DNA of 62,585 nucleotides. Source: a virus. Its lineage: Duplodnaviria; Caudoviricetes. The first letter of the stretch is position 1. Every line of letters starts with the position of its first letter. This document shows, one piece after another, positions 4,040 to 61,047 of this stretch. The DNA lies in IMG/VR virus record IMGVR_UViG_3300031787_000115, positions 1-62,585 of that record, one strand, 5' to 3'. The position numbers and the translations under genes were made by a program. The notes beneath the pieces were generated by a model. That model worked only from the letters and a program-made list of their open reading frames with translations, was not told the DNA's origin and did not search any database.

Positions 4040-4729
4040 AGCCGGATGGGGCCGGAAGATCCCAGAACGGTGCGGGGTGGTGCAGAACGGTGCAGAGTGC
4101 TGCGTGGGGCGGTTCGGTTGCCAAACGAAAGCCCCGGGGGTGCCGGGTCGGTGGTGGCCGGAAGGCCCTGTGCGGTGAGTCGCGGCGGGCGGCGATGCGC
4201 AGCGGAGCATGGCTGGGGGGAGCAATGCGGAGCAAAGCGGTGCGATGCGCCGGTGGTGGGTCAACCCACCGGAGAGGAGCCCTCAGCGGTGGGGTGTGGG
4301 GCCTCGATTGAGGCCCCCCGTGGTGTGCGTTGCGTCGAGCGGCGCAGGGACGCTGGGCGCAGAGTGGCGGTGAGAAGCAAAGCGCAGCACGGCGGCGCGG
4401 AGTGGTGGGCATCAGCCCACCGTCAGACCATAGGTCGGAGGGTGGGTTGTGGGCCCCGTGAGGGGCCCCTGTGGTGTGCGTTGCGCTGCGCGGCTCAGCG
4501 AAGCGGCGCGATCGTGGCGAGGCGCGGCGTCGTGGTGAGTCACCCCACCAGGCAGCCGGTGGCTGCGGGCTGGGGTGGGCGGGCCCCCGGAGGGCCCCCC
4601 TGTGGAGTGCGTCGCAAGGCAAGGCGTCGCGCGGCGCGGTGTCGCAGGGCATTGAGACGGGGCGCGGGGCATTGAGACGGGGCGCGGGGCGCGGCGGCCT
4701 GGGGCTTACACCTGACGGATGCCCAGGCC
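4040..4729 (-). ncRNA. Array of hairpin-delimited pentamer-repeat cassettes (candidate guide RNAs, locus 1)
   Basis: Four complete ~130-150-nt units plus one partial; in-phase tracts at 4172-4251, 4327-4401, 4478-4531, 4609-4698 (plus strand GNR-NN); partly shared flanks GTGGTGTGCG and GTGGTGGG-N4-5-CCCACC; GC hairpins. Confidence 0.75.
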
Positions 4730-4730
4730 A

Positions 4731-5246
4731 TCAGCTCCCCTCCAGCTTCGGCGCCTGCTTGCCGGCACGCTTCAACAGCCGGAGCTGCTTCTGTGCGCCC
4801 TGGGCCGAGGCCGCGATGAAACTGTGAACGTTGATCCTGTTCTGGTGCTCCCGCCGGGCGGCACCGGTGAGCTTCGATTCGTCAACCGCGTTGACCAGTC
4901 GGCCAGTGGCCCGCTGGTGACGACGCAGGCCAGAGAAGGCCTGATCGTTCAGGTAGGCGCTCGCCTTGTCATCGGTCAGCACGTTGATGCAACCACCGGA
5001 GGTGTTCATCACCAGCGGCGGCAGCCCCGCTTGGTTGCGGTCGCGCTCCAGCCACTGGATCACCCGCTGCAACACAAGCGACAGGCGGGCCGCCTTCGCG
5101 GTCTCCTCGTCACCGTGCTGGGTCAGCCAGCCCTGGTAGGTCTCTTGCCGGCGGGTGATGAAGTAGGTCCACGCCTGATCGGCGGGGATGGTCTGTCCCT
5201 TGTAGAGGGACATGGCATCGATCGATGCAATCCTGGGGCTCGACAT
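4731..5246 (-). CDS. Accessory protein of Cas7-like locus 1 (unknown function)
   Basis: ATG overlaps the TGA of the upstream Cas7-like gene (TGATG); 171 aa, basic C-terminus. Confidence 0.8.
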   Translation of the reverse strand: MSSPRIASIDAMSLYKGQTIPADQAWTYFITRRQETYQGWLTQHGDEETAKAARLSLVLQRVIQWLERDRNQAGLPPLVMNTSGGCINVLTDDKASAYLNDQAFSGLRRHQRATGRLVNAVDESKLTGAARREHQNRINVHSFIAASAQGAQKQLRLLKRAGKQAPKLEGS

Positions 5247-5875
5247 CAGGCCACCTCCACTTCGTCGAGCCGGGTGACGCTGAAACGGCCATTGGCGGGC
5301 CGCCAGGTGCCGAGGCCTTCGGCAATACCGGCGCGGTCGATGATCTTCGCCAGCGTCGTGGGATCGATGATCTCGTCGTTGACGAGGAGGTTGTAGGTCG
5401 CGCTCCACTGGGGCAGCCGGAGCCTGACGGCAACGACACCACGGCCGGTGGGGGCGACGGACACGAAGCGCGGATCTTCGTACATCAGCTCCGCATCACG
5501 GGGCCCGTCGTAGATCAGCTCCGCGTCGTTCTCGACGACGATGGCCCGCTTGGTGTCTTTGCCGAGCTTCCAGGCGGTAGCGCCGTCGCGGATGCAACGC
5601 TGCAGATTGTGGGCAGGCAGAAATGGATCGGAGAAACCGCGGAACTTGGAGTCACCATCCAGGGCAGGACCGTAGACGAACTCTCCCTCGGTGCCCCAGT
5701 AGCCGGAGAACAACCACTTGAGCCGGCGGAGTGCGTGTTCGTTGCGGTTCTTCTTGAGGCTGGTGAAGTAGTCGGTAGCGGCTTTGTGGATCCCGAGGGG
5801 ATCCATCTCGCAGGGGTTGCCGAAGATCAGAGGGCGGGTGCCCTGGATCGTCAGCTCGAAACGGCGGAAGGCCAT
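5246..5875 (-). CDS. Stand-alone Cas7/RAMP-like protein (locus 1)
   Basis: N-terminal FELTIQGTRPLIF strand, central PFLPAHNLQRCIRDGA helix, C-terminal glycine loop AGIAEGLGTWRPANGRFSV; 209 aa. Confidence 0.72.
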   Translation of the reverse strand: MAFRRFELTIQGTRPLIFGNPCEMDPLGIHKAATDYFTSLKKNRNEHALRRLKWLFSGYWGTEGEFVYGPALDGDSKFRGFSDPFLPAHNLQRCIRDGATAWKLGKDTKRAIVVENDAELIYDGPRDAELMYEDPRFVSVAPTGRGVVAVRLRLPQWSATYNLLVNDEIIDPTTLAKIIDRAGIAEGLGTWRPANGRFSVTRLDEVEVA

Positions 5876-5904
5876 AGGTGTGTTCCTCGTGGGTTTGGTT
5901 GGGT

Positions 5905-6033
5905 GGGGCCGGAATCCGGCCCCCTGTGGTGTGCGGCGAGAGGCGCTGCGTCGAATGCGAGGCGACGCGAAGCAAAGCGAAGCAGTGTGGCGGGTATCAG
6001 CCCACCGGACAGCCGGAGCTGTGCGGTGGGGTG
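5905..6033 (-). ncRNA. Additional pentamer cassette in the leader of the Cas7-like gene
   Basis: Same flanks as the 4040-4729 units (CCCCTGTGGTGTGCG; GGGTATCAGCCCACC; hairpins); tract 5933-5986. Confidence 0.72.
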
Positions 6034-6059
6034 TCCCTGCCAGTTGGCAACCGAATCGC

Positions 6060-6284
6060 TCACGCCTGCCCAACCTTCAGCCGGCGGCTGCGCATGGTCA
6101 ACGCCTCCTCGACGGCTTGCAGGTTCCAGCGCAGGCGCGGTCGCACCTGGCCGATGCCGGCGTAGCGGTAATGGCGGCCGGCCGTCAGGACACCTTGTCG
6201 GCGCAAGGCCTTGAGGGTTGAGGCGCACATGCCCACGGCAGCGCACACCTCGGCCGTGGTGTAGGCGAACAGCGTCTTCGTCAC
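6060..6284 (-). CDS. Excisionase/MerR-like winged-HTH protein
   Basis: YTTAEVCAAVGMCASTLKALRRQGVLTAGRHY..LRWNLQAV; GTG start. Confidence 0.7.
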   Translation of the reverse strand: MTKTLFAYTTAEVCAAVGMCASTLKALRRQGVLTAGRHYRYAGIGQVRPRLRWNLQAVEEALTMRSRRLKVGQA

Positions 6285-6572
6285 GGCTGGCCACCGGCGG
6301 ACGCCAGGGCAGCAGCGAACAGCCGCCACCCGCAGGGGATGGTCATGGGTCGGTTGAGGTGGGGTGCGTGTCGCCGCCGATGGGCAGCAACGGGGGAAGC
6401 ATACCCCACCGCTTCCGATCCGCAACGGCAGCAGCCCCCAGACACCAGAAAGCCCCCGCGCAGCTGCAGCAGGGGCTCGGTGGGGGACTGGCCGGCATCC
6501 TACCGGCATCGGTCCCGATTGGAAGCAGCGGGTAGGATGGACGGTGCGGCCTGCTGCGGACTGCAGCGACGC

Positions 6573-6600
6573 AAAAAAAAGCCGGGGTTTCCCCCGGCTG
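6573..6600 (-). terminator. Intrinsic terminator (minus strand)
   Basis: A8 run followed by GCCGGGG-TTTC-CCCCGGC hairpin. Confidence 0.6.
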
Positions 6601-6671
6601 CCGTCCTCAAGCCCTGCAAGGCCGGGACGGCGGAATCCCTGATTCACAGACCAATCACAGGAGCACTTTAC

Positions 6672-7658
6672 ATGCCAACTGACAGCGGAGCGGCCAAGGG
6701 CGGGGATCGGTTGACCCGCCGGCCGTTCGTGATGCTCTCGCTCGACCTGGTGGAACAGTGCGCCGAACGCAAGGGCACCCTGTTTGTCTACGCCTGGCTC
6801 TGGCACTACGCCGGCCGCGATGACGCCGCCTGGCCCTCGCTCGATCGCCTGGCGCTGGAGTGCCGGATGAAGCGCGATGACGTCCGGCAGGCCCTCAAGT
6901 GGCTCACCACCGAGGGCTGGGTCACCCGCGAAGACAGGCCCGGCGCTACCTCGATCTTCCACGTCCGCACCGAGAACCCCTCCCCCAAACGGGGGACCCC
7001 TCCCCCAGATGGGGGTACCCCCAAACGGGGGACCACACCCCTCCCCCAAATGGGGGACCCCACCCCTCCCCCAAAAGGGGCTACGAACAAGAAGCCTTTA
7101 ACAAGAGGCCTTGAACAAGAAGCCTTAGACCCCCCTACCCCCCAGCCCGAACCGATCGCCACAGCGCCGGCTGCGCCGGACGAGGGGGCAGGGGCATCCA
7201 CCGGCAAGGTCAAGCTCAGCCCCGCCGACGTCCCCGCCGACCTGGCGCCCGTGGCCGAGCTGTTCTGCACCTGGTGGAACCACCACAAGGGCGGCAAGCG
7301 GACCCAGCGCGCCCTCTCCGTCCAGCTGACCGAGCTGGGCAAGATCCAGGCTGATGCCCGGGGCGGGATCGAGGCGATCCGGGCGCAGCTCCAGAAGGCC
7401 ATCACCGCCGATGAGATCGGCCGCCGCTGGGCCGGCATCACCTTCGACCGCTGGCTCGAGTACGGGCGACCCGCTGCGCTCCAGGTTGGAAATGGAAGCG
7501 GAGGCGGCTACCGTTCCACCCGGGACCGCAAGGACGCGGAGATCAACGATCTCCTCGCCTTCCTGGCCGTCGCAGACCCCGAGTTCGCGGCACCCGGCCA
7601 GGGCGCCCTCAGCACCACCACCCAACCATCCGACTGGGAGAGCCTCGCCCATGCTTGA
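6672..7658 (+). CDS. Phage replication initiator (N-terminal winged HTH, lambda O-like architecture)
   Basis: LFVYAWLWHYAG..AWPSLDRLALECRMKRDDVRQALKWL..GWV; internal iterons. Confidence 0.8.
   Translation: MPTDSGAAKGGDRLTRRPFVMLSLDLVEQCAERKGTLFVYAWLWHYAGRDDAAWPSLDRLALECRMKRDDVRQALKWLTTEGWVTREDRPGATSIFHVRTENPSPKRGTPPPDGGTPKRGTTPLPQMGDPTPPPKGATNKKPLTRGLEQEALDPPTPQPEPIATAPAAPDEGAGASTGKVKLSPADVPADLAPVAELFCTWWNHHKGGKRTQRALSVQLTELGKIQADARGGIEAIRAQLQKAITADEIGRRWAGITFDRWLEYGRPAALQVGNGSGGGYRSTRDRKDAEINDLLAFLAVADPEFAAPGQGALSTTTQPSDWESLAHA
6978..7082. repeat. Iterons / putative replication origin inside the initiator gene
   Basis: Five copies of CCCCA(A/G)A(C/T/A)GGGG, followed by an A-rich stretch at 7083-7125. 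Confidence 0.75.
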
Positions 7659-8073
7659 CCAACAGCACTTCCTCCGCACCCTGCAGGGGATTGCGGAAAC
7701 CCTCCCCTTCGCCAAGCAGCTCGGCGCCGCCGGTGCCCTGCTGGCCTGGCAGACCGTTCCAGCTCAGGCGAAGCGGGAGCTCGGTAACGCTCACTGGACC
7801 TACGCCGCTGGGCAGTACGTGCTCGACCCCGAGCGGCCCCGTGAACTGCCTGTGTTCCTGGCACTGTTGCGGTACCTGTACCGCTGCGAGAACGGCCAGC
7901 CGAACTACGCCTGGGGCCTGAAGCCGGACCTGGCGGAGCGCATGGCCCGGCCCGACGTGTTCCACCCGCAGCCAGCAGCGCCCTACCTGCGGGGCGAACC
8001 CGACCAGCCCAGCGGTGACGCCGCCGCGATCGAAGGCCTCAACCGCCTGTTCCAGCTGCCGGAGGGCGCATGA
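7651..8073 (+). CDS. Hypothetical protein (position of a helicase loader)
   Basis: Overlaps the initiator stop; coding-like composition. Confidence 0.65.
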   Translation: MLDQQHFLRTLQGIAETLPFAKQLGAAGALLAWQTVPAQAKRELGNAHWTYAAGQYVLDPERPRELPVFLALLRYLYRCENGQPNYAWGLKPDLAERMARPDVFHPQPAAPYLRGEPDQPSGDAAAIEGLNRLFQLPEGA

Positions 8074-8615
8074 CCCCCACCGAAGCGCTGGCGGGCCTGC
8101 AGCTGGCTCGGGGCGTGGTTCGGGGTCTGTGGACCCTGGAGCAGCTGGATCGCCCCTCTGAGGCCGCTGGGGGCGTGGAGAACGACCGCCTGGCATCATT
8201 CCGCCCCGACAACCGCAGGCCGCCCTGGGAGCCGCACGAACGGCCCGCCATGGCCTACCCCGGGGCCGGCACCAGCCACCCGGTCCGCAACCTGGCCCGC
8301 GAGTGGATCGCGGCCTACCCAGACCAGTGGGCCGCCCTGCAGTCCGGCGATGATCCCGACGCTGCTGGTGGTCTCGGCACCCCGGCCAGCCGCGAGAAAG
8401 CCCGGCTGATGGTTCTCGCCTTCGATCGGCTGGTGGACAGCGGCCATGACTTCAACGCTGGCCTGGAGCGCCGGCGCATCACGTGGCCGGAGGTGATCCA
8501 GGGCCCCGTCGGCTACCGGCCGCCCTGGCATCCCGCCTGGCGTGAGGCCGGCGATGGGCTCAGCCCCGTGGGCCGGGCGGAGCAGGACCAGCAGGAGGGC
8601 AGCCATGCGGCGTGA
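8070..8615 (+). CDS. Hypothetical protein
   Basis: ATGA-coupled to the previous ORF. Confidence 0.65.
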   Translation: MTPTEALAGLQLARGVVRGLWTLEQLDRPSEAAGGVENDRLASFRPDNRRPPWEPHERPAMAYPGAGTSHPVRNLAREWIAAYPDQWAALQSGDDPDAAGGLGTPASREKARLMVLAFDRLVDSGHDFNAGLERRRITWPEVIQGPVGYRPPWHPAWREAGDGLSPVGRAEQDQQEGSHAA

Positions 8616-8898: not shown

Positions 8899-8899
8899 C

Positions 8900-9190: not shown

Positions 9191-9249
9191 GCCCGCTCCC
9201 GGTTGGAATCGGAAGCGGGGCCTAGGATCCCCACGCGCCACCCGTCACC

Positions 9250-10022: not shown

Positions 10023-10023
10023 G

Positions 10024-10091
10024 GTTCGCCAGTTGTTACGACTTGCGAAGTGTCCGCCCTGATCCTGGCTGAGGTGTTCGCCAGTTGTTAC
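10024..10091 (+). repeat. Exact 16-bp direct repeat GTTCGCCAGTTGTTAC x2 (probable regulator site)
   Basis: 10024-10039 and 10076-10091, intergenic. Confidence 0.75.
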
Positions 10092-10644: not shown

Positions 10645-10645
10645 C

Positions 10646-16184: not shown

Positions 16185-17218
16185 GAACTCCACGGGTAGA
16201 CGGTGATGTATGGAGAGCCGGTGTGTGCCAGGCCCAAAGCATTGCCCGATGGGGAGAACGCAACGCCGCTGACCTCGCCGGGCGGGAGGGTGGCCGGATT
16301 GGCGTATCGGCTGCCGAAGCCGCTGCCGGACCAGGCGTAGCAGCTCAGAAACGGCGTCACCGCATGACCCACGGCAACCGATAGGCCATCAGGGGAGAAG
16401 GCGACGGAGTTGCTGTTGCCTGTGGGCAGGGTGGATGGATTGGAGAACTTCGCGCCAAAGCCAGAGCCGGACCAGGGATAGAAGCTGACGAATGGCGTCG
16501 TGGGGTGTGCGGTCGCCAGTACATCGCTTGCGGGGGAAAAGGTGATCCCGTTGACCTGGTTTGCGGGAAGTGTCGCGGGGTTGCTGAACTTGGTGCCGAA
16601 CGCCGATCCAGACCAGGGGTAGGCGGTAACAAATGACCCTGAGGAGTGACCAACTGCTATCGATGCGCCGTTCGGGGAAAATGCGACTGACCAACAGGCG
16701 TTTGCCGGCAACGTTGCTGGATTCGTGTACTTCGTTCCGAATCCAGATGATGACCACGGATAGGCCGAAACAAAGGGTGTGGTGTTGTGCGCAATCGCCA
16801 CCGCTCCACCTGATGGGGAGAAGGCGATGCCGTTGCCCCTGGTCCCTGGCAGTGTCGCTGGATCCGAATACTTTGCGCCGAATCCTGATGGCGACCACGG
16901 GTAAGCCGTGACGTATGGGCTGGTGGTATGAGCCACGGCAACAGCGTCGCCGGCAGGACTGAACGCCACACCATTCCCCAAACCGGTTGGCAGTGTTGCC
17001 GGGTTGCTGAACTTGGCACCAAAGCCTGTCGATGCGGACCAGGGGTAAGCCGTGACATAGGGCGTACCTGAGGTGCTGATTGCAACCGCATCACCAGCAG
17101 GCGAGAACGCGATCGACAGACCCGTCAGGCCTGGCAGGGTGGAGGGGTTTGAATACTTCACCCCGAAGCCAGGGGTTCCCGTGTTCGTCGCCGCAGCCAG
17201 CGCACTACGCCCCAGCAT
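16181..17218 (-). CDS. Seven-repeat beta-propeller protein, putative receptor-binding protein
   Basis: Seven ~47-aa repeats FGxKxSNPATLP..VAFSPxG..AVAH..PYVTAYPWS. Confidence 0.85.
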   Translation of the reverse strand: MLGRSALAAATNTGTPGFGVKYSNPSTLPGLTGLSIAFSPAGDAVAISTSGTPYVTAYPWSASTGFGAKFSNPATLPTGLGNGVAFSPAGDAVAVAHTTSPYVTAYPWSPSGFGAKYSDPATLPGTRGNGIAFSPSGGAVAIAHNTTPFVSAYPWSSSGFGTKYTNPATLPANACWSVAFSPNGASIAVGHSSGSFVTAYPWSGSAFGTKFSNPATLPANQVNGITFSPASDVLATAHPTTPFVSFYPWSGSGFGAKFSNPSTLPTGNSNSVAFSPDGLSVAVGHAVTPFLSCYAWSGSGFGSRYANPATLPPGEVSGVAFSPSGNALGLAHTGSPYITVYPWSS

Positions 17219-20200
17219 CACGACCTCCCCTTGAGAGGTGCAATCTCGATGGTGGTGCCGCCGCCGACCACCTCGATCACCACCCGTTCGGTGTCGCTGG
17301 CGGTGGGGGTCATGGCGCTGCCGCCGTCCCACTTGACCGTGTAACCGCTGTTGCCGGTAAACCATGAGATCGTTCCCGACGTGTAGGCGAAGGCCAGCAC
17401 GCCCCGCCACAGGTAGTCGCTGGGGATGTTGGCCAGGTTGCTGAGGTTGATCGTCGTCGCGCCGTTGATCGCAGCGCTGGTGACGAACTCGTTGCCGGCC
17501 TGCACGTCGAGCGTGTAGGTGCCGCTGCTGGCGGTGACACTCAGCCGGCGCTGGGCCAACGAGTCAGCGATCACCAGATCCCAGCCACTGACGGCAGCGG
17601 TGCCGATGCCAAGCTGATCGAAACGGACGCCGGTGCTCGGGAGTCTCGCGGCGGCCAGGGTGCCGGTGCTGATGTCGCTGGCGCTGCCGCTGGTGGCGAC
17701 TGCGGCCAAGTCGCTGATCGTGTTGGCCGTCTGCGTGCCGGTGTGGTTGGCGCGGCTGAGCAGGTGGGCGTCGGTCTGGTTCGCCGTGGCGCCGGTGGCG
17801 ATGCCGTCCAGCTTGGTTTTCGCGCTGCTGGCGGCCCACCAGGCGGCGATCGCCTGCCAGACCCGCTGCACCGTCCAGGCGCGGCGATCGGTGGCGGTGC
17901 CGGCTTCGGCGTCGGCTTGGATGACGGTGGGGGCCGACCACTCGCGGGCGTCGCTCAGGCGGGTGTCGCTGCCCTTGACCACCTGGGCGCTGCTGGCGTC
18001 GCCCGTGGCGGCCACGTCTAGGGGTGCAGCGGTGCCGAGGGTGGGCGCGGTGTAGCTGACGACGCCGGTGGTGGGGTTGTAGTCGAGCGATCCCCCGGCG
18101 CTGATCGACTGCCGGGCGCGGGCGGTCGTGAAATAGAGGTTGACGCTGCCCTCGCTGACGGCATCCGTACTGCCGGGGCTGGCGGAGATTTCGACGTAGG
18201 CCGAACCGGACCAGCGGTAGGTCTTGCCGGTGTCGAGGGCGACGTAGATTTTCCCGGTCTCGCCAGTGCCCGAAAACGCCGCGAGGTTGGCCGCCTCGAT
18301 CACGTCATCGACGTAGCTGGGCAGCAGCGTCGAGGGGATCAGGCCGCTGCCGTCCAGCCGGGCCAGACCGTTGGGGGCGTTCAGCGTCAGCTCGACATTG
18401 CGGCTGCGGGTCCAGAAGCCGGAGCCGTCCTGGGTGCTGGTGTCAGAGATGCTGATCGGCTGACTGGCGGTGACGCTCAGGCCCGCCAGGTAGCGGTTGT
18501 CGGAGTAGGTGCGGACCGCGAACTGGGTCGGGGCGGTGTCGGCGGCAGAGACGCCGGTGCTGGCCAGCAAGCTGGTGCTGTTCGAGACCTCCTGGAGCTG
18601 CACCCCCACCGTCGAGGCTCCGCCGTTGCGTGAGAACGGACCCACGGCGTTGAGCCCGCTGAGGTTGAACTGGCTGGTGTTGATCGTGACCGCGCCGGTG
18701 GTGCCATCCACCGCGAAGGCGCCGCCGGCCACCTTCACGTCACCGACATCGTTGACGATCAGGCCGAAGACCCGCCCCAGGTTGCGCTCGACCGCTTCGT
18801 TGCCGCGGATCGGCACGCCACCGTTCCAGGGGAGTGCTGAGTAGTTGGTGCCGGCGCCGACGTAGTTGGCGCTGTGGCAGCCGGCGCTGATCTGCGACCG
18901 CTGGCGGAAGTCCGCTGTAGCGCCCTGGGACACGTTGGCCGCCAGGCCGCTGCCCGAGGGGTTGAAGAACGTCACCCGGTAGCCGGCCCGTGTGGGGGCG
19001 GTGTCGGTGACGATCGTGCCGCTGGCGTCGATCGGGGTGCTCGACTGGATGACGTAGGGGTTGCCGCCGAGTAACAGGATCTGGCCCGCCGCCGGGCGGC
19101 TGCTGCTGCCCAGCCGGTTGGCACTCAGGCTCACCACATCCACCGTCAGGGCGCCGGACGAGGCCGCTACCCGCAGGGAGCCGGTGAACAGGGCCGTGGT
19201 GCTGTAGCCATCGGCCACCAGGCCGTAGATGCCGAACTCGCTGGCACCGCCGCCGCTCAGGGTCGCCTGGCCGCCGGTCTCGCACTGGACGTGCCAGGTG
19301 CCGAACAGCCCGAAGAAGCTGACCAGCTCGGCATAGCCGTCGTTCCGAACGACCGCGCCGGGGCCGCCCAGGTTCTGCTGGGTGAAGCCGTAGACCAGCA
19401 GGCTGCGGATCGGGGAATCGCTCCGGCAAGCCGCACCATCGACCAGCACGCCGCCGCCGGTGTCGCCGGTGCTGGTGCTGCCGGCCAGGCCGGCGTCATC
19501 CTCGGCGGTGATCGAGGCGCAGTCCTTGACGTAGGGGCTGGCGGTCAGGAACACGCCCGCCCCGCCGTTAGCGGCCTCGTTCAGCCGCACCGCCCAGGCC
19601 CGTGTCCCCACCGTGGAGTCCGTCGAGCTGGTGCCGGTGGCCTGATGGCCGCTGTGGGTGAAGTCCGCCACCATGCAACCGGAATCCAGCGCCCAGAAGC
19701 CGTTCAGCTCCTGACCGCTCGCGGGCTTGATGGTGGTGCCCCGCTGCAGCGCACCCTGGGCGAGGATGTTGGGCTTGAGCCGGAACGGCAGGGACGCCTC
19801 CACGAACTCGCCGGGGCCGACGAGGATCTTGGCCTTGGCGCCGGCGTTGGCCGTGACGTAGACGTTGGCGGCGGTCACCGCTGCGCCGATCGTCAGGAAC
19901 GGTTCGCCGGGGCTGGTGCCGTTGTTGGTGTTGCTGCCGCCCTTGCTGACGTAGAAGGTGGCCGCATCGCGGAAGGCATCGAGCCGGGCCTTCAGCTCAG
20001 CGAAGCGGCTGTCGTCGCCAGCGGCCACAGTGCCGGCGGTCTGGCCGACGTTGATGCCAACGGTCTTCGTGCCGGCGTCGTAGGTGATCGGCGCGGTGGC
20101 ATTGGCCACACCCGACGGCCCCTGGGGGCCCGTCGCACCCTGGGGGCCGGTGGCGCCCTGCGGACCCGTCGCACCGGTCGCGCCCTGGGGCCCCTGCGGA

Positions 20201-20685
20201 CCAGTCGCACCCTGCGGGCCAACGGGGCCGGTCAGTGAGGCCAGGCTGACGAGGTTCGTCCAGCTGGCGTCTCCGGCGTAGCGCCACTGCACGTGGGTCG
20301 CGCCGGCCTGGAGCTCCACCTCGCGGCCATTGGCGCCAGCGGCACCGGCAGGGCCATCAGCACCGGCCGCGCCAGCAGGCCCCGCCGGACCCGTTGCGCC
20401 GGTGGCACCGGCAGGACCGGCCGGGCCCTGGGGACCAGCAGCACCTGCAGGACCCGCAGGGCCAGCCAGGTCCGCCGTCGCAATCAGGTTCGTCCAGGTG
20501 GTGCCGCCGACCACCCGCCACTGCACCTGCCCGCTGCTGACCCGCAGCTCGATCGCAGGGCCAGCCGGCCCGGCAGCGCCCGCAGGCCCAGCCGCACCCG
20601 GCGCACCCGCAGGCCCAGGCGTCACCACCCGCACCGCCGCCGGTCCGCTCGGGACCGTCACCCGCACCACATCAGGGCAGCTCAT
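17218..20685 (-). CDS. Long tail fibre protein with collagen-like G-X-Y repeats
   Basis: Three GPAGPA/GPQGAT tracts, FYVSKGGSNTNNG..PFLTI beta-helix entry motif, LSRANHTGTQ fibre motif. Confidence 0.88.
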   Translation of the reverse strand: MSCPDVVRVTVPSGPAAVRVVTPGPAGAPGAAGPAGAAGPAGPAIELRVSSGQVQWRVVGGTTWTNLIATADLAGPAGPAGAAGPQGPAGPAGATGATGPAGPAGAAGADGPAGAAGANGREVELQAGATHVQWRYAGDASWTNLVSLASLTGPVGPQGATGPQGPQGATGATGPQGATGPQGATGPQGPSGVANATAPITYDAGTKTVGINVGQTAGTVAAGDDSRFAELKARLDAFRDAATFYVSKGGSNTNNGTSPGEPFLTIGAAVTAANVYVTANAGAKAKILVGPGEFVEASLPFRLKPNILAQGALQRGTTIKPASGQELNGFWALDSGCMVADFTHSGHQATGTSSTDSTVGTRAWAVRLNEAANGGAGVFLTASPYVKDCASITAEDDAGLAGSTSTGDTGGGVLVDGAACRSDSPIRSLLVYGFTQQNLGGPGAVVRNDGYAELVSFFGLFGTWHVQCETGGQATLSGGGASEFGIYGLVADGYSTTALFTGSLRVAASSGALTVDVVSLSANRLGSSSRPAAGQILLLGGNPYVIQSSTPIDASGTIVTDTAPTRAGYRVTFFNPSGSGLAANVSQGATADFRQRSQISAGCHSANYVGAGTNYSALPWNGGVPIRGNEAVERNLGRVFGLIVNDVGDVKVAGGAFAVDGTTGAVTINTSQFNLSGLNAVGPFSRNGGASTVGVQLQEVSNSTSLLASTGVSAADTAPTQFAVRTYSDNRYLAGLSVTASQPISISDTSTQDGSGFWTRSRNVELTLNAPNGLARLDGSGLIPSTLLPSYVDDVIEAANLAAFSGTGETGKIYVALDTGKTYRWSGSAYVEISASPGSTDAVSEGSVNLYFTTARARQSISAGGSLDYNPTTGVVSYTAPTLGTAAPLDVAATGDASSAQVVKGSDTRLSDAREWSAPTVIQADAEAGTATDRRAWTVQRVWQAIAAWWAASSAKTKLDGIATGATANQTDAHLLSRANHTGTQTANTISDLAAVATSGSASDISTGTLAAARLPSTGVRFDQLGIGTAAVSGWDLVIADSLAQRRLSVTASSGTYTLDVQAGNEFVTSAAINGATTINLSNLANIPSDYLWRGVLAFAYTSGTISWFTGNSGYTVKWDGGSAMTPTASDTERVVIEVVGGGTTIEIAPLKGRS

Positions 20686-56710: not shown

Positions 56711-56834
56711 GGCTGGCTGAGGGTGTGGTGGTGGGCCAGGCGCTGGCGGAGCAGGGCGGCGGTGCCGACCAGTCCGGAGTTGAGGCCGAGCATCACCAGC
56801 CCGGCGGTGGTGAAGATGGCGGCGAGGGCTCCGG

Positions 56835-57041
56835 TCATGACTCGATGGGGGTGAGACCCGCGGCGCGGGCGATGCACGCCTCCAGCTCGACCAGCTGCTG
56901 GTGCAGCTGCATGGCGGCGCTGGGGGTGATCTCCTCCTCGAGGGCGATCGCGTTCTCGGCCATGGCCTGAGCTGTGGTGATCGCGGAGGAAAGCTGGTCG
57001 CCCAGCAGGAGGGCGACCGGTTCGTTGAGGTAGGGAGCCAT
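56835..57041 (-). CDS. Hypothetical protein
   Basis: TGATG-coupled. Confidence 0.6.
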   Translation of the reverse strand: MAPYLNEPVALLLGDQLSSAITTAQAMAENAIALEEEITPSAAMQLHQQLVELEACIARAAGLTPIES

Positions 57042-57379
57042 CAGAAGGGGCAGTCAGAAACGTCACCGAGCTCAGCCACCTCGGAGGGGCGGCTGGAATC
57101 GCCGGGCAGGTAGCGGGCGGTCTCGGGGGCACCGGCAGCGCCCCGGCTGGTGGCGGCCAACGAGTTGGCGGCGGCGGCGGCCAACGAGTTGCTGGCGGCC
57201 TCCAGCTCGGCCAGCAGATGCTCCAGCTGGGCCAGCAGGGCGTCCACCTGCTTCACATTGGCCAGCAGATGATCCAGCCGGGTCAGGCGGGCGTCCACCT
57301 GCTCGGAGGCCATCGGCTGGGCGCCGGGGTAGACGGCGGGGCCGGTGGTGGTGACAGGGGCGAGGGGGGTGGCGGCCAT
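57041..57379 (-). CDS. Hypothetical coiled-coil protein
   Basis: Heptad-like repeats, CPF terminus. Confidence 0.6.
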   Translation of the reverse strand: MAATPLAPVTTTGPAVYPGAQPMASEQVDARLTRLDHLLANVKQVDALLAQLEHLLAELEAASNSLAAAAANSLAATSRGAAGAPETARYLPGDSSRPSEVAELGDVSDCPF

Positions 57380-57427
57380 GGCTGTTGTGGTGGTGGCGGT
57401 TCAGGTTGGAAAGCGGAGTGGCCCGGC

Positions 57428-57754
57428 TCAGCGGCCGGGGCCGTGGGCGGCCCAGAGCTGGGCCATGTCGCGGCGGTACTCGGCCTCCTCGCGATCGGCG
57501 GCCTCCTCGTCGAAGGGCTCGCTGATCGTGATGACGAACGGCGCTCCGTCGGCGATGAACAGGGCGCCCATCTGCAGGACGTCGCTGTCGTCGGCGCAGT
57601 CTTCAAACGCCTCGGAGGCGAACTGAAAGCGCGACTGCAGCTCGTCCTCCACCGCCTCGCCCGTCTCAATGACGGCGCAGAGGTGGTGATCGAGGAGGTC
57701 GTCGAGGTCGGTGATGGCCTCGACGGCGAGGGCGGGAGCGGTGAGGGTGGCCAT
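57428..57754 (-). CDS. Acidic hypothetical protein
   Basis: First gene after the TATAGT promoter at ~57800. Confidence 0.65.
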   Translation of the reverse strand: MATLTAPALAVEAITDLDDLLDHHLCAVIETGEAVEDELQSRFQFASEAFEDCADDSDVLQMGALFIADGAPFVITISEPFDEEAADREEAEYRRDMAQLWAAHGPGR

Positions 57755-57852
57755 GGTTCGTGGCGGGTGGTGGTGCGCGGGGGGTTGCCCCATGACCGAA
57801 CTATAGCCGCTTCCAATGCCAATGGCGATCGCTTTACGAAAGTTCGCGGCAA

Positions 57853-58425
57853 TCAGCGGATCGACCAGGACCGGCCCGTCACCAGCTCCGCCCCCGGCAC
57901 GGCCTGCCCAGCCTTGAGGGCGGCCTTCAGCGCGGTCTTGTCCGGCGCGTAGGTCCGCCGCTCGCGGAGGAACTCCGGCGGCAGCTCGGCATCCGGGTCG
58001 ATCGCCACACTCTCGGTGCGGCGGCTGGTGAGCTCATGCGCCGGCAGGCTCCAGCGGGTGGCGTCGGGATCGATGCCGGCCAGGGCGGCCAGCAACCGCT
58101 CCTGCAGGGCGTCAGCCCGGCGGGCGTCCACGTCGGCCAGGTCGCGCAGGCGGTCGCTCTCGGCCCGTCGGTAGGCGGCCTGAGCCCGCAGCTGGGCGAT
58201 CACCCAGCAGTAGGCGTCAGCCTTGCGCTGCAGGGCCTCGCGATTGCCGGCCTCGCTCAGCAGCAGGGCCTCGAGGGCGCCAGCGGTGTCGGTGTTGAGG
58301 TCACCATCCTCGGTGTGCAGGCCTTCGGCCAGTTCACTGATCTGCCGCTGCAGGGCCATGGCCTCACCGGCCAGGGCGAACAGGGAGGGCGCCGGGGCCT
58401 CGACGGGAAGGGGGGTGGTGGTCAT
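57853..58425 (-). CDS. Siphovirus Gp157-like protein
   Basis: KADAYCWVI..AESDRL..LPPEFL..PDKTALKAALKAGQAVPGAEL. Confidence 0.85.
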   Translation of the reverse strand: MTTTPLPVEAPAPSLFALAGEAMALQRQISELAEGLHTEDGDLNTDTAGALEALLLSEAGNREALQRKADAYCWVIAQLRAQAAYRRAESDRLRDLADVDARRADALQERLLAALAGIDPDATRWSLPAHELTSRRTESVAIDPDAELPPEFLRERRTYAPDKTALKAALKAGQAVPGAELVTGRSWSIR

Positions 58426-58453
58426 GGGTCTGCGGTGGTGGGATGCGCTCCGG

Positions 58454-58481
58454 TTGCCAACTGGAAGCGCCTATGTACGAT
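58454..58481 (+). promoter_or_regulatory. Putative promoter of Cas7-like locus 2, with operator palindrome
   Basis: TTGCCA-16 nt-TACGAT; TGCC-AACT-GGAA at 58455-58466. Confidence 0.55.
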
Positions 58482-58544
58482 AGCGGCGCCATCGGGCCCG
58501 GCTCGATGGACTTGGCACGGCTCCTGACCCACGAACCACCATGA

Positions 58545-59192
58545 ATGGCCACCACCACCGCGAAGAAGACCGCCGCCACTGAAGAGATCGTCGTCATCCA
58601 GGCGCCGGACTTCCGCCTGCTTGAGCTGGAGATCGAGGGCACCAGCCCCCTTGTCATCAACCGCTTCAGCGCCAAGGCGATCGAGATGATGCGGGCGACC
58701 CAGGAAGCCGGCAGCACCGCCAAGAGCAAGAAGGCCCGGGAGCCGAAGGACTTTGATGCCCTGTTTGAGAACGCCAAGCACGTCAGCGAGGACGGCTGGG
58801 AGGGCATCCATGCCGCCGCGTTTCGCAACGGGGCGATCAGCGCCTGCCGGGCCTGCGGCTTCAAGATGACCCACGCGAAGCTGGCGTTCAGCGTTCACGC
58901 CGACGGTTACGACAGGGTGGACGGTGCCCCGCTGGTGCGACTGACCCACGGGACCGCGGAGCAGTACGTAGCCCCCACCAGGAACGCGACCGGCGTTGTA
59001 GACCTGCGCTGCCGCCCCATGTATCGCCGCTGGGGCGCCAATCTGCGCATCAAGTACGACGCGGGGATGTTGACGGCGGCCGACGTGACCAATCTGATCG
59101 TCAGGGTCGGTCTTCAGGTCGGCATCGGTGAAGGTCGGCCCGACTCAAAAGCCAGCGCGGGCCTAGGTTTTGGGCTCTTTTCCGTCATTTGA
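58545..59192 (+). CDS. Stand-alone Cas7/RAMP-like protein (locus 2)
   Basis: LELEIEGTSPLVINRF strand, GIHAAAFRNGAISA helix, DLRCRPMY..W, glycine loop VGLQVGIGEGRP..GLGFGLF. Confidence 0.75.
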   Translation: MATTTAKKTAATEEIVVIQAPDFRLLELEIEGTSPLVINRFSAKAIEMMRATQEAGSTAKSKKAREPKDFDALFENAKHVSEDGWEGIHAAAFRNGAISACRACGFKMTHAKLAFSVHADGYDRVDGAPLVRLTHGTAEQYVAPTRNATGVVDLRCRPMYRRWGANLRIKYDAGMLTAADVTNLIVRVGLQVGIGEGRPDSKASAGLGFGLFSVI

Positions 59193-59219
59193 TCAGCGGT
59201 TCCCCTACCACTGATCCCC

Positions 59220-61047
59220 AGGGCGCCGCTGACCCCGGCGCCCTTTTCGCAGGCAAGGCAACGAATTGACGGCTCGGTAGGCGGGGCAACGCCGGCGAGG
59301 CTTGATAGGCGCGCCGATGCTGCGCTGCCCATGGCAGGAGTCGCAAGGCCTGCCCTGGATCGGAAACGCAAGCCTGGGAGCGGCTGGCATGGAGTGGATC
59401 GACAGCACAGCGCGGGGACAGGCCGGCCAGGCAATGCGCCGCCCGGTAGGTGGGGCGTGGTCGGCATGGCGGGCTAGGCGTCGTCGGGCTCGTCACGGCA
59501 TCGATCGGCTGGCATGGTGTGGCGCGCTCAGTAGCGATGGGATGGGCACGGCCGACATGGCCTCGATGGCTCGGAACCCGTGGCGCTGGTGGGCGCGGCC
59601 GGCATGGCGTGGCGACGGATCGAGCGCTGAGGCACTGCGGGCCAGGACTGGCATGGTTGGCATGGAATCGCTGGCTCCGCAAGGTGAGGCTAGGTGCCGA
59701 AAGGCGCCGAACCGCTGGCGTGGTCACACCAGGGAGGCAGGGCGATGCACGGCCGGCAACGCGACGCGTGGCATGGCACTTCAGGGCCGGCAAGGCGAGG
59801 GATCCGAGGCTTGCCTGGGCCTGGGTCGGCACGGCCGGCAGGGCGACGCGAGTGGTGGGCTGGGGGGCCTGGCACCGGATGGCACGGGACGGCAGGAGAG
59901 ACCTGGCACGACCCCGCACGACGGGGCCCGGTGCGGGTTGGCGCGGGACGGCAGGCACGGCGTGATGCGGATTCTCAGAGCAGGGGACGGCGGGGCCTGG
60001 CCGGCGCGAAATGGACGGCGCGGCCCGGGACCATTGGCTCGAGGCGGCAGGGCTGGCGCGGCACGTCTAGGTAGGCGTCGGCGGGCACGGCGGGCACGGC
60101 GTGTCATGGGTCGGTTCTCCCTGGCGTGGCCGGCATGGGTGGCAGGGCGCCGCTTGGCACGGCCTGGGCTGGCCGGCAGGGCAGCGCGCCGCTTGGCGGG
60201 GCACGATCCGGCTGGCAGCGCAGCGTGTGGCATGGCTCCACTTGTTTGGGCCAGGCCGGCATCGCAGCGCCTGGCATGGCTCCGCTCATGGCGGCCCGGC
60301 TGGCAGCGCTCGGTAGGCAAGGCGTGGACGGGATCGGGTTGGCAGGCCTGGCGAGGACTATCACGGTCCGCAAAGGCAAGACGAGGCAGGGCAGGCATGG
60401 ATGGGCCCGATGCGGATGCGATTGGCTGCGCAGGCATGGCAAGGCTTCCCCTGGGCTGGCGCGGTTCGACGCGGCTGGCAAGGCGAGGCAAGCCCAGCAG
60501 GGTGAGGGATGGCACGGCGTGACCACGGGCACGACCACGGCACGGCTGGTCAGGCCTGGCCAGAACGGATTGATGCGGAGAGGCAGGCATGGCAAGGGAG
60601 GCCCGCCGGGGACCAGCTCGACCGGACGCGGCAGGCTTGGCACGGCATGGCTAGGTGCAGCAGCGAGCGGCCGGCTCGCCGAGGTATGGCCCCGACTGGC
60701 GCCGCTGGGACCGCAGGCATGGTCTGGGTCGGAGCGCGCGGAGCGCATGGCTGGCACGGCGCACCCCCGCATGACAGGGCTAGGTCGGTCGGCCTGGCTG
60801 GCACGGCAGCGAAGACGCGGCGCGGGTTGGAGGGGCAGGCACGGATGGGCGTGGACCCCGTGATGGGGCACGGCTGGCATGGAGCGCCCAGGTCTGGGAT
60901 GGAGCGGCAGGTAAGGCGTGGCGAGACCCGGTGCGGCATGGCTGGCGTGGCCTGCCAGCGACTGACGAGGAGACGACCGGTGCGGCCGGCAAGGCGCGTC
61001 CGTTGCCGCTTTGAACCGCAAGCGGCATCCTGACCCTGGCAGGGTCA
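59220..61047 (+). ncRNA. ~1.75-kb GGC-NN pentamer array (candidate guide RNA array, locus 2)
   Basis: 5-nt periodic GGCNN-like units punctuated every ~35-55 nt by a 4-nt (G/C)GC(A/T/C) unit; hairpins at 59220-59244, 61004-61027, 61031-61047; six-frame ORFs are low-complexity. Confidence 0.8.

What the first reader, a model, noticed from the sequence alone, without database searches (positions are those of the whole stretch)
4172..61000. Two divergent systems in one phage use different constant triplets and array architectures
SEEN: on the coding strand locus 2 reads GGC-NN as one continuous punctuated array with fairly degenerate triplets. Locus 1 reads YGC/CNC-NN (e.g. cgc, tgc, ctc) in separate hairpin-capped cassettes. 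The two RAMP-like proteins share only motif-level similarity and the accessory proteins look unrelated. INFERENCE: two orthogonal subtypes whose proteins recognise different handles, so a YGC-NN variant may be a new subtype. The alternative is that locus 1 RNAs are made from the plus strand as GCG-NN.
Basis: partly seen in the sequence, partly recalled or inferred. Interest (0 to 1): 0.8.

Follow-up and report, generated by a model that had tools for sequence, protein, structure and literature searches.

The report
Two VIPR guide-RNA systems, one phage
This phage carries two copies of the recently described VIPR RNA-guided silencing system, one with the usual GGC-NN guide repeats and one with an unusual CGC/TGC-NN repeat, so it is a new example of a known kind of system and not a new kind.

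Summary
Locus 2 (58545-61626, + strand) is a RAMP gene, a 1.9-kb GGC-N(1-2) array and an accessory gene. Locus 1 (4133-6040, - strand) is a second, distant RAMP gene, an unrelated accessory gene and five hairpin-capped cassettes of 12-18 pentamers.

Both are VIPR systems (Vipr protein, vap gene, vrRNA pentamer arrays), described in four 2026 bioRxiv preprints. Locus 2's continuous, punctuated array fits the published "staggered" architecture: 64 of 79 phase changes are a 1-nt shortening.

The strand question for locus 1 is largely settled. In 21 inter-array elements from the window and relatives, helices hold 25 G·U against 1 A·C on the coding strand. One relative has a strong coding-strand promoter in front of the array. 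So the triplet reads Y-G-C (72 window units: CGC 41, TGC 12, CTC 7, none starting with G).

The two residues that read the first G in the solved SUSP1 Vipr (H17, D177) are G19 and T190 in the locus-1 protein. The G2 contacts and R179 are kept.

Non-GGY repeats and multiple types are already in print, so this is a new member of a known kind. Orthogonality remains an untested inference. No targets or RNA data were found.

The parts
58451..58461 (.). Operator/promoter-like motif CGGTTGCCAAC in the divergent region upstream of vipr2. Related copies lie at 6043-6053 (upstream of cassette E) and 4115-4125.
Evidence: exact copies at 58451 (+) and 6043 (-), a 1-mismatch copy at 4115 (+). The pattern as a whole is not enriched (35 matches against 24 +/- 5 in shuffles).
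58545..59192 (+). vipr2: 215-aa Vipr (RAMP) protein of locus 2, G-loop GIGEGRP
   Evidence: phrog_4652 E 5.5e-15. hhalign against the locus-1/SUSP1-like alignment gives 99.8%. AF2 pLDDT 88.9, and the top Foldseek PDB hits are Csm3/Cmr4/type VII Cas7. 4269 homologues at E<=1e-3. Alone against PDB 36pp it reaches only E 0.12.
59222..61042 (+). Locus-2 vrRNA array: about 1.8 kb of GGC-NN pentamers with frequent 4-nt (GGC-N) units and degenerate units (staggered architecture)
   Evidence: The ORFs that overlap it (for example 59302-60522, 406 aa) translate to G/R/A/W-rich low-complexity strings. No Rfam family and no tRNA were found.
61069..61626 (+). vap2: 185-aa accessory protein (phrog_15946, HP.FEW.D motif)
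   Evidence: phrog_15946 E 5.4e-16. Homologous to Cy-LDV1 g33 (E 2e-26) and Quico gp58 (E 1e-12), each next to a Vipr gene. A homologue lies downstream of vipr in 70 of 80 locus-2-type loci.
5990..6040 (-). 5' structured module (CCCACC - small hairpin - GGTGGG - loop - CCCGCC) ahead of cassette E
   Evidence: Read. It is the same module as the 3' half of the inter-array elements aligned.
5905..5989 (-). Cassette E: vrRNA array (about 12 units YGC-NN, with one 4-nt unit) plus the GC-rich tail hairpin, in the leader of vipr1
5246..5875 (-). vipr1: 209-aa Vipr (RAMP) protein of locus 1, G-loop GLGTWRP
   Evidence: phrog_4652 E 2.3e-24. PDB 36pp 'SUSP1 Vipr protein' E 1.9e-10. AF2 pLDDT 94.8, and the top Foldseek PDB hits are Cmr4/Csm3/Cas7.
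4731..5246 (-). vap1-position accessory gene: 171 aa, its start overlaps the vipr1 stop (ATGA). No family assigned.
   Evidence: No similarity to wV8 gp095 (E 30) or to vap2 (E 1.0). A homologue is present in 35 of 37 locus-1-type loci.
4696..4729 (-). Conserved leader hairpin (CCTGGG..CCCCAGG) directly after the accessory gene's stop codon, ahead of the first downstream array
   Evidence: Seen in the window, L008, L013, L109 and L110. L109 and L110 have TCTAGG..CCTAGA, which keeps the pairing.
4595..4708 (-). Cassette D: 18 units, including an in-phase 20-nt tandem duplication
   Evidence: (TRF 4643-4690, period 20)
4524..4622 (-). Inter-array element D/C (tail hairpin HP1, CCCACC/GGTGGG helix enclosing HP2, then the GGTGGG/CYYACC hairpin)
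   Evidence: Row 1 of alignment A2
4465..4535 (-). Cassette C: 4 + 7 units separated by one 4-nt unit
4396..4494 (-). Inter-array element C/B
   Evidence: Row 2 of A2
4315..4405 (-). Cassette B: 16 units in one phase
4245..4343 (-). Inter-array element B/A
   Evidence: Row 3 of A2
4165..4253 (-). Cassette A: 16 units in one phase
4133..4147 (-). Terminator-like hairpin plus GCTTTCGTTT after the last cassette, on the minus strand
   Evidence: 3 such sites in the region against 1.2 +/- 1.2 in shuffles, so weak on its own

Best explanation
The window is a complete phage record of about 62 kb that carries two VIPR (Viral Interference Programmable Repeat) systems of different types.

HOW A VIPR SYSTEM WORKS (from the preprints, for the SUSP1 system). 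Vipr protomers polymerise on a vrRNA, one protomer per pentamer. They sequester the constant triplet and present the two variable bases. These bases pair with double-stranded DNA while skipping every third target base, and this silences transcription of competing mobile elements.

LOCUS 2 (58545-61626, + strand) is vipr2, a 1.8-kb GGC-NN array of the published 'staggered' kind, and vap2.

LOCUS 1 (4133-6040, - strand) is one leader cassette, then vipr1 and an unrelated accessory gene, then four cassettes and a terminator-like hairpin. Each cassette holds 12-18 pentamers followed by a structured tail. The locus-1 vrRNAs are made from the coding (minus) strand, and their constant triplet is Y-G-C. 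The second and third positions of the canonical GGY are kept, and the first G is replaced by C or U.

INFERRED, NOT SHOWN. The change of handle goes with replacement of the two residues that hydrogen-bond G1 in SUSP1 Vipr (H17 becomes G19, D177 becomes T190). Each protein would then load mainly its own RNAs, giving the phage two separate guide pools.
For: MEMBERSHIP. A profile of both proteins hits PDB 36pp 'SUSP1 Vipr protein' at E 1.6e-18, and vipr1 alone at E 1.9e-10. Both hit phrog_4652. hhalign between the two clades gives 99.8%. The AF2 models (pLDDT 94.8 and 88.9) have Csm3/Cmr4/Cas7 as best PDB folds. The preprints define VIPR as Vipr + vap + GGY/NN pentamer vrRNAs in long intergenic flanks.

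NAMED RELATIVES ALSO CARRY ARRAYS. Cy-LDV1, Quico, ODay and Trine read GGC. MakoManhole reads GGC/GGT. wV8, a SUSP1-like phage, reads GGT.

PERIODICITY. z = 18 for locus 2 and z = 7 for locus 1 against dinucleotide shuffles.

STAGGERED ARCHITECTURE. 64 of 79 phase changes are -1. 4-nt spacings make up 9.0% of GGC spacings in 81 locus-2-type sequences, against 0.6% of YGC spacings in 38 locus-1-type sequences. The Fig. S18 legend describes vrRNAs that overlap by 1 nt.

STRAND OF LOCUS 1. On 21 inter-array elements, 16 helix pairs are 96.7% paired, against 85.5 +/- 1.1 in shuffles and at most 54.3% when partners are slid. Nine pairs have compensatory changes. Non-Watson-Crick cells are 25 G·U against 1 A·C, so the mirrored strand would pair only 89.5%. 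The GGTGGG/CYYACC hairpin has 116 Watson-Crick and 16 G·U cells and nothing else in 22 units. RNAalifold on the opposite strand recovers only the GC hairpin. L109 has TTGACA-17-GATAGT with TG (10 of 12) on the coding strand immediately upstream of the array. The window has a minus-strand terminator-like site after cassette A.

HANDLE. Window census of 72 units: position 3 is C in 72, position 1 is C or T in 69 and G in 0, position 2 is G in 56. In the clade logo (window + 37 loci, 1009 GC-anchored units) position 1 is C 0.74, T 0.12, A 0.10, G 0.03, and positions 4 and 5 carry 0.02 and 0.04 bits. In the locus-2 clade (3072 units) position 1 is G 0.87.

RESIDUES (alignment A4). H17/D177/W178/R138/R179 of wV8 gp096 share the SUSP1 numbering, checked by eye from the translation. 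They correspond to G19/T190/W191/R151/R192 in vipr1 and to N/E/G/R/R in vipr2. The roles of these residues come from 10.64898/2026.04.26.720927 (section read). All seven GG-reading systems examined have D or E at position 177. 63 of 71 locus-1-clade cluster representatives have T there.
Against: No RNA evidence: no RNA run holding this sequence was listed.

No target was found for locus-1 guides under the published 1-nt-skip rule, so guide function of the YGC arrays is not demonstrated.

The residue argument rests on a homologue only 28% identical. It is not a universal code: vipr2 and Cy-LDV1 lack H17 and W178 yet read GGC.

The link between T at position 177 and loss of G1 rests on one clade, so on one evolutionary event.

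The promoter and terminator scans are weak statistically: 3 sites found against 1.8 and 1.2 expected.

Sequences in the structure test are related and some are near-duplicates, so cell counts overstate the number of independent events.

vipr2 alone scores only E 0.12 against the solved Vipr.
Confidence: 0.8

Rival explanations
1. Locus-1 RNAs are transcribed from the plus strand, antisense to vipr1, and read GCG/GAG/GCA-NN, with the GGTGGG..CCCACC hairpin as a 3' tail.
For: The plus strand of the cassettes is G-rich like canonical vrRNAs (GC skew +0.157 over 4001-6000). On that strand a hairpin also follows each array. A copy of the operator-like motif at 4115 (+) lies upstream of cassette A in plus orientation.
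Against: 25 G·U against 1 A·C in conserved helices, and 16 G·U against 0 A·C in the GGTGGG hairpin, would all become A·C mismatches on the plus strand. RNAalifold does not recover the helices on that strand. All named relatives examined have arrays on the coding strand. L109 has a strong coding-strand promoter-like site before the array. GCR keeps only one of the three canonical handle features, while YGC keeps two.
Confidence: 0.08
2. The two systems are not orthogonal. Either Vipr protein loads both RNA sets, and the handle difference is neutral drift tolerated by a permissive position-1 pocket.
For: G2 and Y3 are shared by both handles, and the residues that contact them in SUSP1 (R138, R179) are kept in both proteins. 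Position 1 in locus 1 is not strict: A 0.10 and T 0.12. Locus-2 arrays are themselves degenerate. The third preprint shows foreign vrRNAs can redirect a phage's Vipr (abstract seen).
Against: G is specifically depleted at position 1 in locus-1 arrays (0 of 72 units in the window, 3% in the clade), although the genome is about 69% G+C. Drift would not produce that. The proteins are 25% identical with different G-loops (GLGTWRP against GIGEGRP). The tails and architectures differ. The two modules occur independently in relatives.
Confidence: 0.25
3. The periodic regions are not guide RNAs. They would be protein-coding low-complexity genes or DNA-level repeats such as iterons or binding sites.
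For: Long ORFs can be drawn over locus 2 (406, 316, 269 and 257 aa). In Gordonia phage Trine the deposited annotation runs a CDS over the equivalent array.
Against: A 5-nt period with 4-nt slips cannot keep a reading frame. ORFs occur on both strands and in several frames, as expected at 69% G+C. Positions 4 and 5 carry about zero information while the triplet is fixed. Homologous arrays in SUSP1 are sequenced small RNAs that co-purify with Vipr (10.64898/2026.04.26.720920, Results read).
Confidence: 0.02

Closest known systems
VIPR type II (Escherichia phage SUSP1 / P. fulva prophage): Vipr + vap1 + hairpin/pseudoknot-tailed vrRNAs (bioRxiv 10.64898/2026.04.26.720920 and 10.64898/2026.04.26.720927; PDB 36pp)
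   Same: Locus 1 has the same layout: one vrRNA upstream, a two-gene operon, and an array of separately tailed vrRNAs of 12-18 pentamers downstream, all on the coding strand. Its protein is the closer of the two to the solved Vipr (E 1.9e-10) and keeps R138, W178 and R179.
   Different: The handle is YGC, not GGY. H17 and D177 are replaced by G and T. The accessory protein shows no similarity to wV8 gp095, the vap1-position gene (E 30). The tail is a GC hairpin plus a CCCACC/GGTGGG module, and adjacent vrRNAs abut without recognisable own promoters. I could not see which of the seven types the authors would assign, because figures and supplements are not held.
[quoted passage not shown]
   Same: Locus 2 is a continuous GGY/NN tract in which successive registers are offset by 1 nt: 64 of 79 phase changes are -1. 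It has no hairpin tails. The same holds in Quico, Cy-LDV1, ODay and 80 IMG/VR relatives.
   Different: Size. The vipr-vap gap is 1876 nt here, against a median of 456 and a maximum of 1073 in 70 relatives. The array is also strongly degenerate, with many units lacking GGC. Where individual vrRNAs begin and end cannot be told from sequence.
VIPR arrays with non-canonical repeat units (bioRxiv 10.64898/2026.10.21.760802: 21 clusters, for example GAC, CAC, WGT, TGH; and 'NNNGG, YNNNG, NNNNG' in the discovery preprint)
   Same: Locus 1 is a Vipr-associated pentamer array whose triplet departs from GGY at one position. YGC fits the YNNNG notation and resembles WGT/TGH in having lost G1.
   Different: CGC, YGC and TGC are not named in the main text of that preprint (0 occurrences). 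They may be in its Fig. S10, which I cannot see. Position 1 here is not free: it is pyrimidine-biased and G-depleted.
Class 1 CRISPR backbone RAMPs (Cas7 family: Csm3, Cmr4, Csf2, type VII Cas7)
   Same: Same fold (best PDB matches) and the same principle: a RAMP filament on a guide RNA, with a thumb that flips bases at a fixed period.
   Different: Period 5 with three bases sequestered, against period 6 with one base flipped. There are no CRISPR repeat-spacer array and no other cas genes. The system is phage-encoded and has a two-gene locus.

Membership tests
VIPR system | Vipr protein: minimal RAMP (RRM core, glycine-rich loop, thumb) homologous to the described Vipr family | tested here: met
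   Both proteins hit phrog_4652. The joint profile hits PDB 36pp at E 1.6e-18, and vipr1 alone at E 1.9e-10. vipr2 alone reaches only E 0.12, but hhalign to the vipr1/SUSP1-like alignment gives 99.8%. AF2 models match Cas7-family RAMPs best. G-loops G.G..RP are present.
VIPR system | Tandem pentamer vrRNA region (at least 4 units: constant triplet + hypervariable NN) in the intergenic flank of vipr | tested here: met
   Positions 4 and 5 carry 0.00-0.16 bits in both clades.
VIPR system | Constant triplet is GGY | tested here: met
   This row is for locus 2. In the locus-2 clade, GC-anchored units have G at position 1 in 87% of cases, and in 78% in the window.
VIPR system | Constant triplet is GGY (locus 1) | tested here: not met
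   0 of 72 window units start with G, and the consensus is YGC. This fits the 'related consensus'/YNNNG class that the authors include in VIPR, so it does not exclude membership.
VIPR system | Adjacent vap accessory gene forming a minimal two-gene locus | tested here: met
   Locus 1: ATGA-overlapping 171-aa gene, with a homologue in 35 of 37 relatives. Locus 2: 185-aa gene after the array, with a homologue in 70 of 80 relatives. Which vap number (1-6) applies could not be determined.
VIPR system | vrRNAs are expressed as small RNAs and bind Vipr | not testable with these tools
   No RNA run was listed. Strand was inferred from G·U asymmetry only.
VIPR system | NN positions match natural DNA targets under the 1-nt-skip rule | tested here: inconclusive
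   In 685 kb of held sequence the best matches equal those of shuffled guides. Two exact 9-unit scans of IMG/VR gave 2 hits each, whose other 6 units matched at chance: 2/12 and 5/12 bases, then 3/12 and 3/12. No mismatch-tolerant search of a large database was possible.
VIPR type II (SUSP1-like) | G1-reading residues H17 and D177 | tested here: not met
   vipr1 has G19 and T190. vipr2 has N and E.
CRISPR-Cas (class 1) | Array of 24-48-nt direct repeats with spacers, plus further cas genes | tested here: not met
   TRF lists no such array in the window. Rfam finds no CRISPR direct-repeat family. The neighbours are Gam-like and excisionase-like phage genes. No dedicated CRISPR finder was run.

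The most novel reading that the evidence does not exclude
Position 1 of the VIPR handle would be a tunable specificity determinant set mainly by the two residues equivalent to SUSP1 H17 and D177. The locus-1 clade (G/S/A19 + T190) would have evolved a pyrimidine-preferring, G-excluding pocket, which makes its guide pool orthogonal to the co-resident GGC system. One phage could then run two non-interfering silencing programmes and resist hijacking by foreign GGY vrRNAs. A hint comes from three cluster representatives (P0159, P0161, P0163) that are 96% identical to the T190 protein encoded in L109. P0163 differs from it at 9 of 209 residues, and two of these are exactly those positions (S19N and T190D). 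That is what a recent switch back to a G1 handle would look like.
Probability: 0.3. Interest if true: 0.55.

Novelty: new member of a known kind. Interest (0 to 1): 0.35.

Why it matters
VIPR is a newly described RNA-guided DNA-silencing system, reported only in 2026 preprints and proposed there as an ancestor of CRISPR RAMPs. This window adds a complete phage of about 62 kb that carries two types side by side. Two 62-kb relatives share the arrangement.

It also gives a sequence-level rationale for a non-GGY handle: loss of both G1-contact residues while the G2 contacts and R179 are kept. If the handles are orthogonal, such pairs would be natural parts for multiplexed, non-cross-talking programmable repression. 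They would also show how phages escape the vrRNA hijacking described for satellites.

For annotation, 1-2 kb of 'gene-free' or falsely ORF-filled sequence in many high-G+C phages can now be labelled. Examples are Trine gp40 and the 406-aa ORF here.

Tried and rejected
RNA EVIDENCE. The look-up of sequencing runs with window:1-10000, kind rna: no RNA holder was listed.

KNOWN RNA FAMILIES. Rfam at gathering level over the whole window gave 0 matches. At E<=10 over 3900-6400 it gave only three chance-level hits outside the cassettes. I had considered a hammerhead or other ribozyme in the inter-array module, since ribozyme-interspersed arrays are published. There is no support for it. ARAGORN found no tRNA in the window.

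GLOBAL FOURIER POWER at period 5 in 300-nt windows did not single out the loci clearly, because phase slips break coherence. I replaced it with distance histograms.

ANCHOR MOTIF. A fixed tail-motif regex failed to find cassettes in most relatives. I replaced it with a periodicity caller.

TARGETS. Guides A, B and D were scanned with skip 0-3 against the window plus 127 loci. The best scores equalled those of order-shuffled guides, apart from the self-match at skip 3. Two IMG/VR pattern scans gave chance hits only. Cassettes C and E and all of locus 2 were not searched in IMG/VR.

D190 NATURAL VARIANTS.

PROMOTER MOTIF. I first read TTGCCAAC as a -35 or sigma-54-like element. It occurs in both orientations and is not enriched. 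This is left open.

HOST. The assembly is the phage record only. Source names of Vipr2 homologues mention Cyanobacteriota and Burkholderiaceae MAGs. No host was assigned.

ROWS LEFT OUT. Of 29 inter-array units found, 22 were unique. 21 of these went into the fold tests. L009_1658 was left out because it lacks the first hairpin. L103-L106 were left out of the logos as duplicates of L020, L018, L022 and L016. Some remaining loci are the same contig held in two collections (L116 and L013 both lie in a 51,327-nt contig) and were not removed.

SUPPLEMENTS AND FIGURES of all four preprints were not visible. The type assignment (Figs 5A, S16, S17, data S4), the staggered-array figure (S18) and the list of non-canonical triplets (Fig. 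S10 of the fourth preprint) may already cover what is described here.

Full report
WHAT IS THERE. The window is a complete virus record of 62,585 bases with about 69% G+C. Short repeats near its two ends match each other (117-177 and 62455-62515).

Locus 2 lies on the + strand. A 215-aa gene (58545-59192) is followed by 1876 nt without a credible gene, and then by a 185-aa gene (61069-61626). In 59220-61000 there are 181 GGC against 53 GCC. GGC-GGC distances are almost only 4 or 5 and their sums. Pairs at distance 4 or 5 number 87, against 15.8 +/- 3.9 in 500 dinucleotide-preserving shuffles.

Locus 1 lies on the - strand. A 209-aa gene (5246-5875) overlaps by ATGA a 171-aa gene (4731-5246). 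One cassette lies in the leader (5905-5989) and four lie downstream (4165-4708). Each holds 12-18 pentamers between hairpins. GC-GC pairs at distance 5 number 35, against 12.8 +/- 3.1 in shuffles.

WHAT IT IS. Both proteins hit phrog_4652, a family of unknown function, and no Pfam family. A profile of both, with relatives, hits one solved structure, PDB 36pp 'SUSP1 Vipr protein', at E 1.6e-18. The locus-1 protein alone reaches E 1.9e-10 and the locus-2 protein alone only E 0.12.

That name led to four 2026 bioRxiv preprints.
- 10.64898/2026.04.26.720920 is the discovery paper. I read the Results and two Methods sections.
- 10.64898/2026.04.26.720927 reports cryo-EM structures. I read two Results sections.
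- 10.64898/2026.10.15.759431 covers competition with satellites. I saw the abstract and outline only.
- 10.64898/2026.10.21.760802 is a language-model survey. I read passages.

They define VIPR as a phage-borne minimal RAMP (Vipr), an accessory gene (vap) and vrRNAs of 9-16 pentamers, GGY + NN, with a structured 3' tail. Vipr protomers sequester each GGY. The NN bases pair with DNA while skipping every third target base, and the outcome is transcriptional silencing of competing phages and satellites. Seven types are described, with staggered, ribozyme-interspersed and single-vrRNA architectures, and with alternative repeats 'NNNGG, YNNNG and NNNNG'.

The two window proteins are homologous along their length: hhalign gives 99.8% and E 1.2e-28 over 185 columns. 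BLASTP sees only 31% over 58 residues. AlphaFold2 models (pLDDT 94.8 and 88.9) have Csm3, Cmr4 and type VII Cas7 as best PDB folds. The family is very large: 5515 clusters at 50% identity reach E<=1e-3 with the joint profile.

Named relatives carry arrays on the coding strand next to the gene. Cyanophage Cy-LDV1, Mycobacterium phage Quico and Gordonia phages ODay and Trine read GGC. MakoManhole reads GGC/GGT. E. coli phage wV8, which is SUSP1-like, reads GGT.

LOCUS 2 ARCHITECTURE. The 183 GGC in 59200-61060 fall into 80 runs of constant phase, none longer than 10 units. 64 of the 79 phase changes are -1, that is a 4-nt unit GGC-N followed by GGC. This fits what the legend of Fig. S18 of the discovery preprint calls staggered arrays, where neighbouring vrRNAs overlap by 1 nt. 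I could not see the figure.

The feature belongs to the clade. 4-nt spacings are 9.0% of GGC spacings in the window plus 80 IMG/VR relatives, against 0.6% of YGC spacings in the locus-1 clade. The window's array is unusually long: the vipr-vap gap is 1876 nt, against a median of 456 and a maximum of 1073 in the 70 of 80 relatives where the vap homologue was found. The other ten contigs end within 650 nt.

STRAND AND HANDLE OF LOCUS 1. GC is its own complement, so periodicity cannot tell the strand. I collected 18 IMG/VR and 19 metagenome relatives, 73-85% identical in protein. I aligned the elements between successive arrays.

In the coding orientation the order is:
- the end of one array;
- a GC-rich hairpin;
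- a CCCACC/GGTGGG helix that encloses a small hairpin;
- a GGTGGG-loop-CYYACC hairpin;
- the next array.

On 21 of the 22 unique units, RNAalifold finds 16 pairs, nine of them with compensatory changes. 96.7% of cells are paired, against 85.5 +/- 1.1 in shuffles and at most 54.3% with slid partners. Among the cells that are not Watson-Crick, 25 are G·U and 1 is A·C. The same helices on the other strand would therefore pair 89.5%. In the third hairpin all 16 departures in 22 units are C-to-T changes that keep G·U. On the opposite strand RNAalifold recovers only the GC hairpin.

A lower-G+C relative (L109) has TTGACA-17-GATAGT with an upstream TG on the coding strand directly before its array. 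The window has a minus-strand hairpin plus GCTTTCGTTT after the last cassette. Taken together, the RNAs are most likely made from the coding strand.

Read that way, the 72 in-phase units of the window are CGC 41, TGC 12, CTC 7, CCC 5, CAC 4 and AGC 3. In 1009 GC-anchored units of the clade, position 1 is C 0.74, T 0.12, A 0.10 and G 0.03, and positions 4 and 5 are uninformative. In the locus-2 clade position 1 is G 0.87. The handle is thus Y-G-C. It keeps G2 and Y3 of the canonical triplet and replaces G1 with a pyrimidine. This fits the published YNNNG class with an added bias.

WHY THE HANDLE MAY DIFFER (inference). In SUSP1 Vipr, G1 is hydrogen-bonded by H17 and D177. G2 is held by R138 and W178. 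Y3 sits in a pocket that includes R179, and D177A and R138A abolish silencing. wV8 gp096 has the same numbering, which I checked by eye on the translation. In alignment A4:

| SUSP1/wV8 residue | Role in SUSP1 | vipr1 | vipr2 |
|---|---|---|---|
| H17 | reads G1 | G19 | N |
| D177 | reads G1 | T190 | E |
| R138 | holds G2 | R151 | R |
| W178 | holds G2 | W191 | G |
| R179 | Y3 pocket | R192 | R |

- Both G1 contacts are lost in vipr1, while the G2 contacts and R179 are kept.
- Of 71 cluster representatives of the locus-1 clade, 63 have T at position 190. The commonest pairs at positions 19/190 are S/T (44) and G/T (16).
- All seven GG-reading systems examined have D or E at position 177.
- vipr2 and Cy-LDV1 lack H17 and W178 and still read GGC, so this is not a universal code.
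- The T190 link to YGC rests on a single clade.

A suggestive detail concerns P0163. It differs from the L109 protein at 9 of 209 positions, and two of them are S19N and T190D. I could not reach the DNA next to these variants.

DISTRIBUTION. Two complete relatives of about 62 kb carry both systems: G009 (L008 and L027) and G010 (L014 and L025). Of five phage records with the locus-1 type, two hold a Vipr2 homologue. Of five with the locus-2 type, none holds Vipr1. The modules therefore move independently. The discovery preprint counts 667 systems in 664 loci, so double loci exist but are rare there. Its main text has no passage on co-occurrence or orthogonality (0 occurrences of the terms searched).

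The accessory proteins are unrelated to each other. The locus-1 one shows no similarity to wV8 gp095. The locus-2 one is the phrog_15946 family also found beside Vipr in Cy-LDV1, Quico and ODay.

WHAT IS NOT SHOWN. Four things remain open: expression, processing, binding specificity and targets. No RNA run was listed. Searches with the 1-nt-skip rule found nothing above shuffled guides.

VERDICT. The systems are members of an already described kind, and non-GGY handles are already in print. What is added is a dual-type phage, a quantified YGC handle with G exclusion, a residue-level rationale, and an unusually long staggered array.

Noticed in passing
L003 (Gordonia phage Trine) 4575-4860; L107 (Gordonia phage MakoManhole) 1645-1695 and 2980-3145: In these two phages the GGC-NN vrRNAs are separated by copies of a tRNA-like element with a canonical T-arm (GGTTCGACTCC). 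ARAGORN calls one copy in Trine a tRNA with an undetermined anticodon (4783-4851). This suggests processing by RNase P or RNase Z. The word tRNA does not occur in the main text of the discovery preprint, so this array architecture may be undescribed.
   Followed up: partly
L003 4585-4880 (Trine gene 40): The deposited CDS of Trine gp40 starts inside the vrRNA region. Its first ~100 residues are G/R/A-rich translation of the array and tRNA-like elements, and the real accessory protein probably starts at MSTIEGIEQ. The same risk applies to the 406-aa ORF at 59302-60522 of the window.
   Followed up: partly
P0159, P0161, P0163 against L109 792-1418: These cluster representatives are 96% identical to a T190 protein. 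They carry N19 and D190, the two positions equivalent to the G1 contacts of SUSP1 Vipr. Their neighbouring arrays could not be fetched.
   Followed up: partly
window 4115-4125, 6043-6053, 58451-58461 (also 46704, 8623, 2251 with one mismatch): A CGGTTGCCAAC-like motif sits next to both VIPR loci in either orientation. If so, both systems are under the same repressor.
   Followed up: partly
window 4643-4690: An exact 20-nt tandem duplication (four pentamers) lies inside cassette D and keeps the phase (TRF). It shows one way arrays can grow or change.
   Followed up: no
window 4696-4729; L008 4300-4335; L013 4133-4168; L109 1933-1966: A conserved hairpin with a conserved 17-nt loop sits immediately after the locus-1 accessory gene's stop codon, ahead of the first downstream array. 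The stem covaries between high- and low-G+C relatives. It may be a processing or nucleation site.
   Followed up: no
window 117-177 and 62455-62515: The same short repeats occur near both ends of the record. This fits a terminal repeat or a circularly permuted assembly. Across that junction the two VIPR loci lie only a few kb apart.
   Followed up: no
window 20117-20635, inside the 1155-aa ORF 17218-20685 (-): Period 9/18/27 repeats are typical of collagen-like Gly-X-Y tracts, presumably in a tail fibre.
   Followed up: no
window 6976-7126, inside ORF 6339-7658 (+): Tandem 20-25-nt repeats encode proline-rich PPPKGG-like units, followed by three 14-nt repeats. Function unknown.
   Followed up: no
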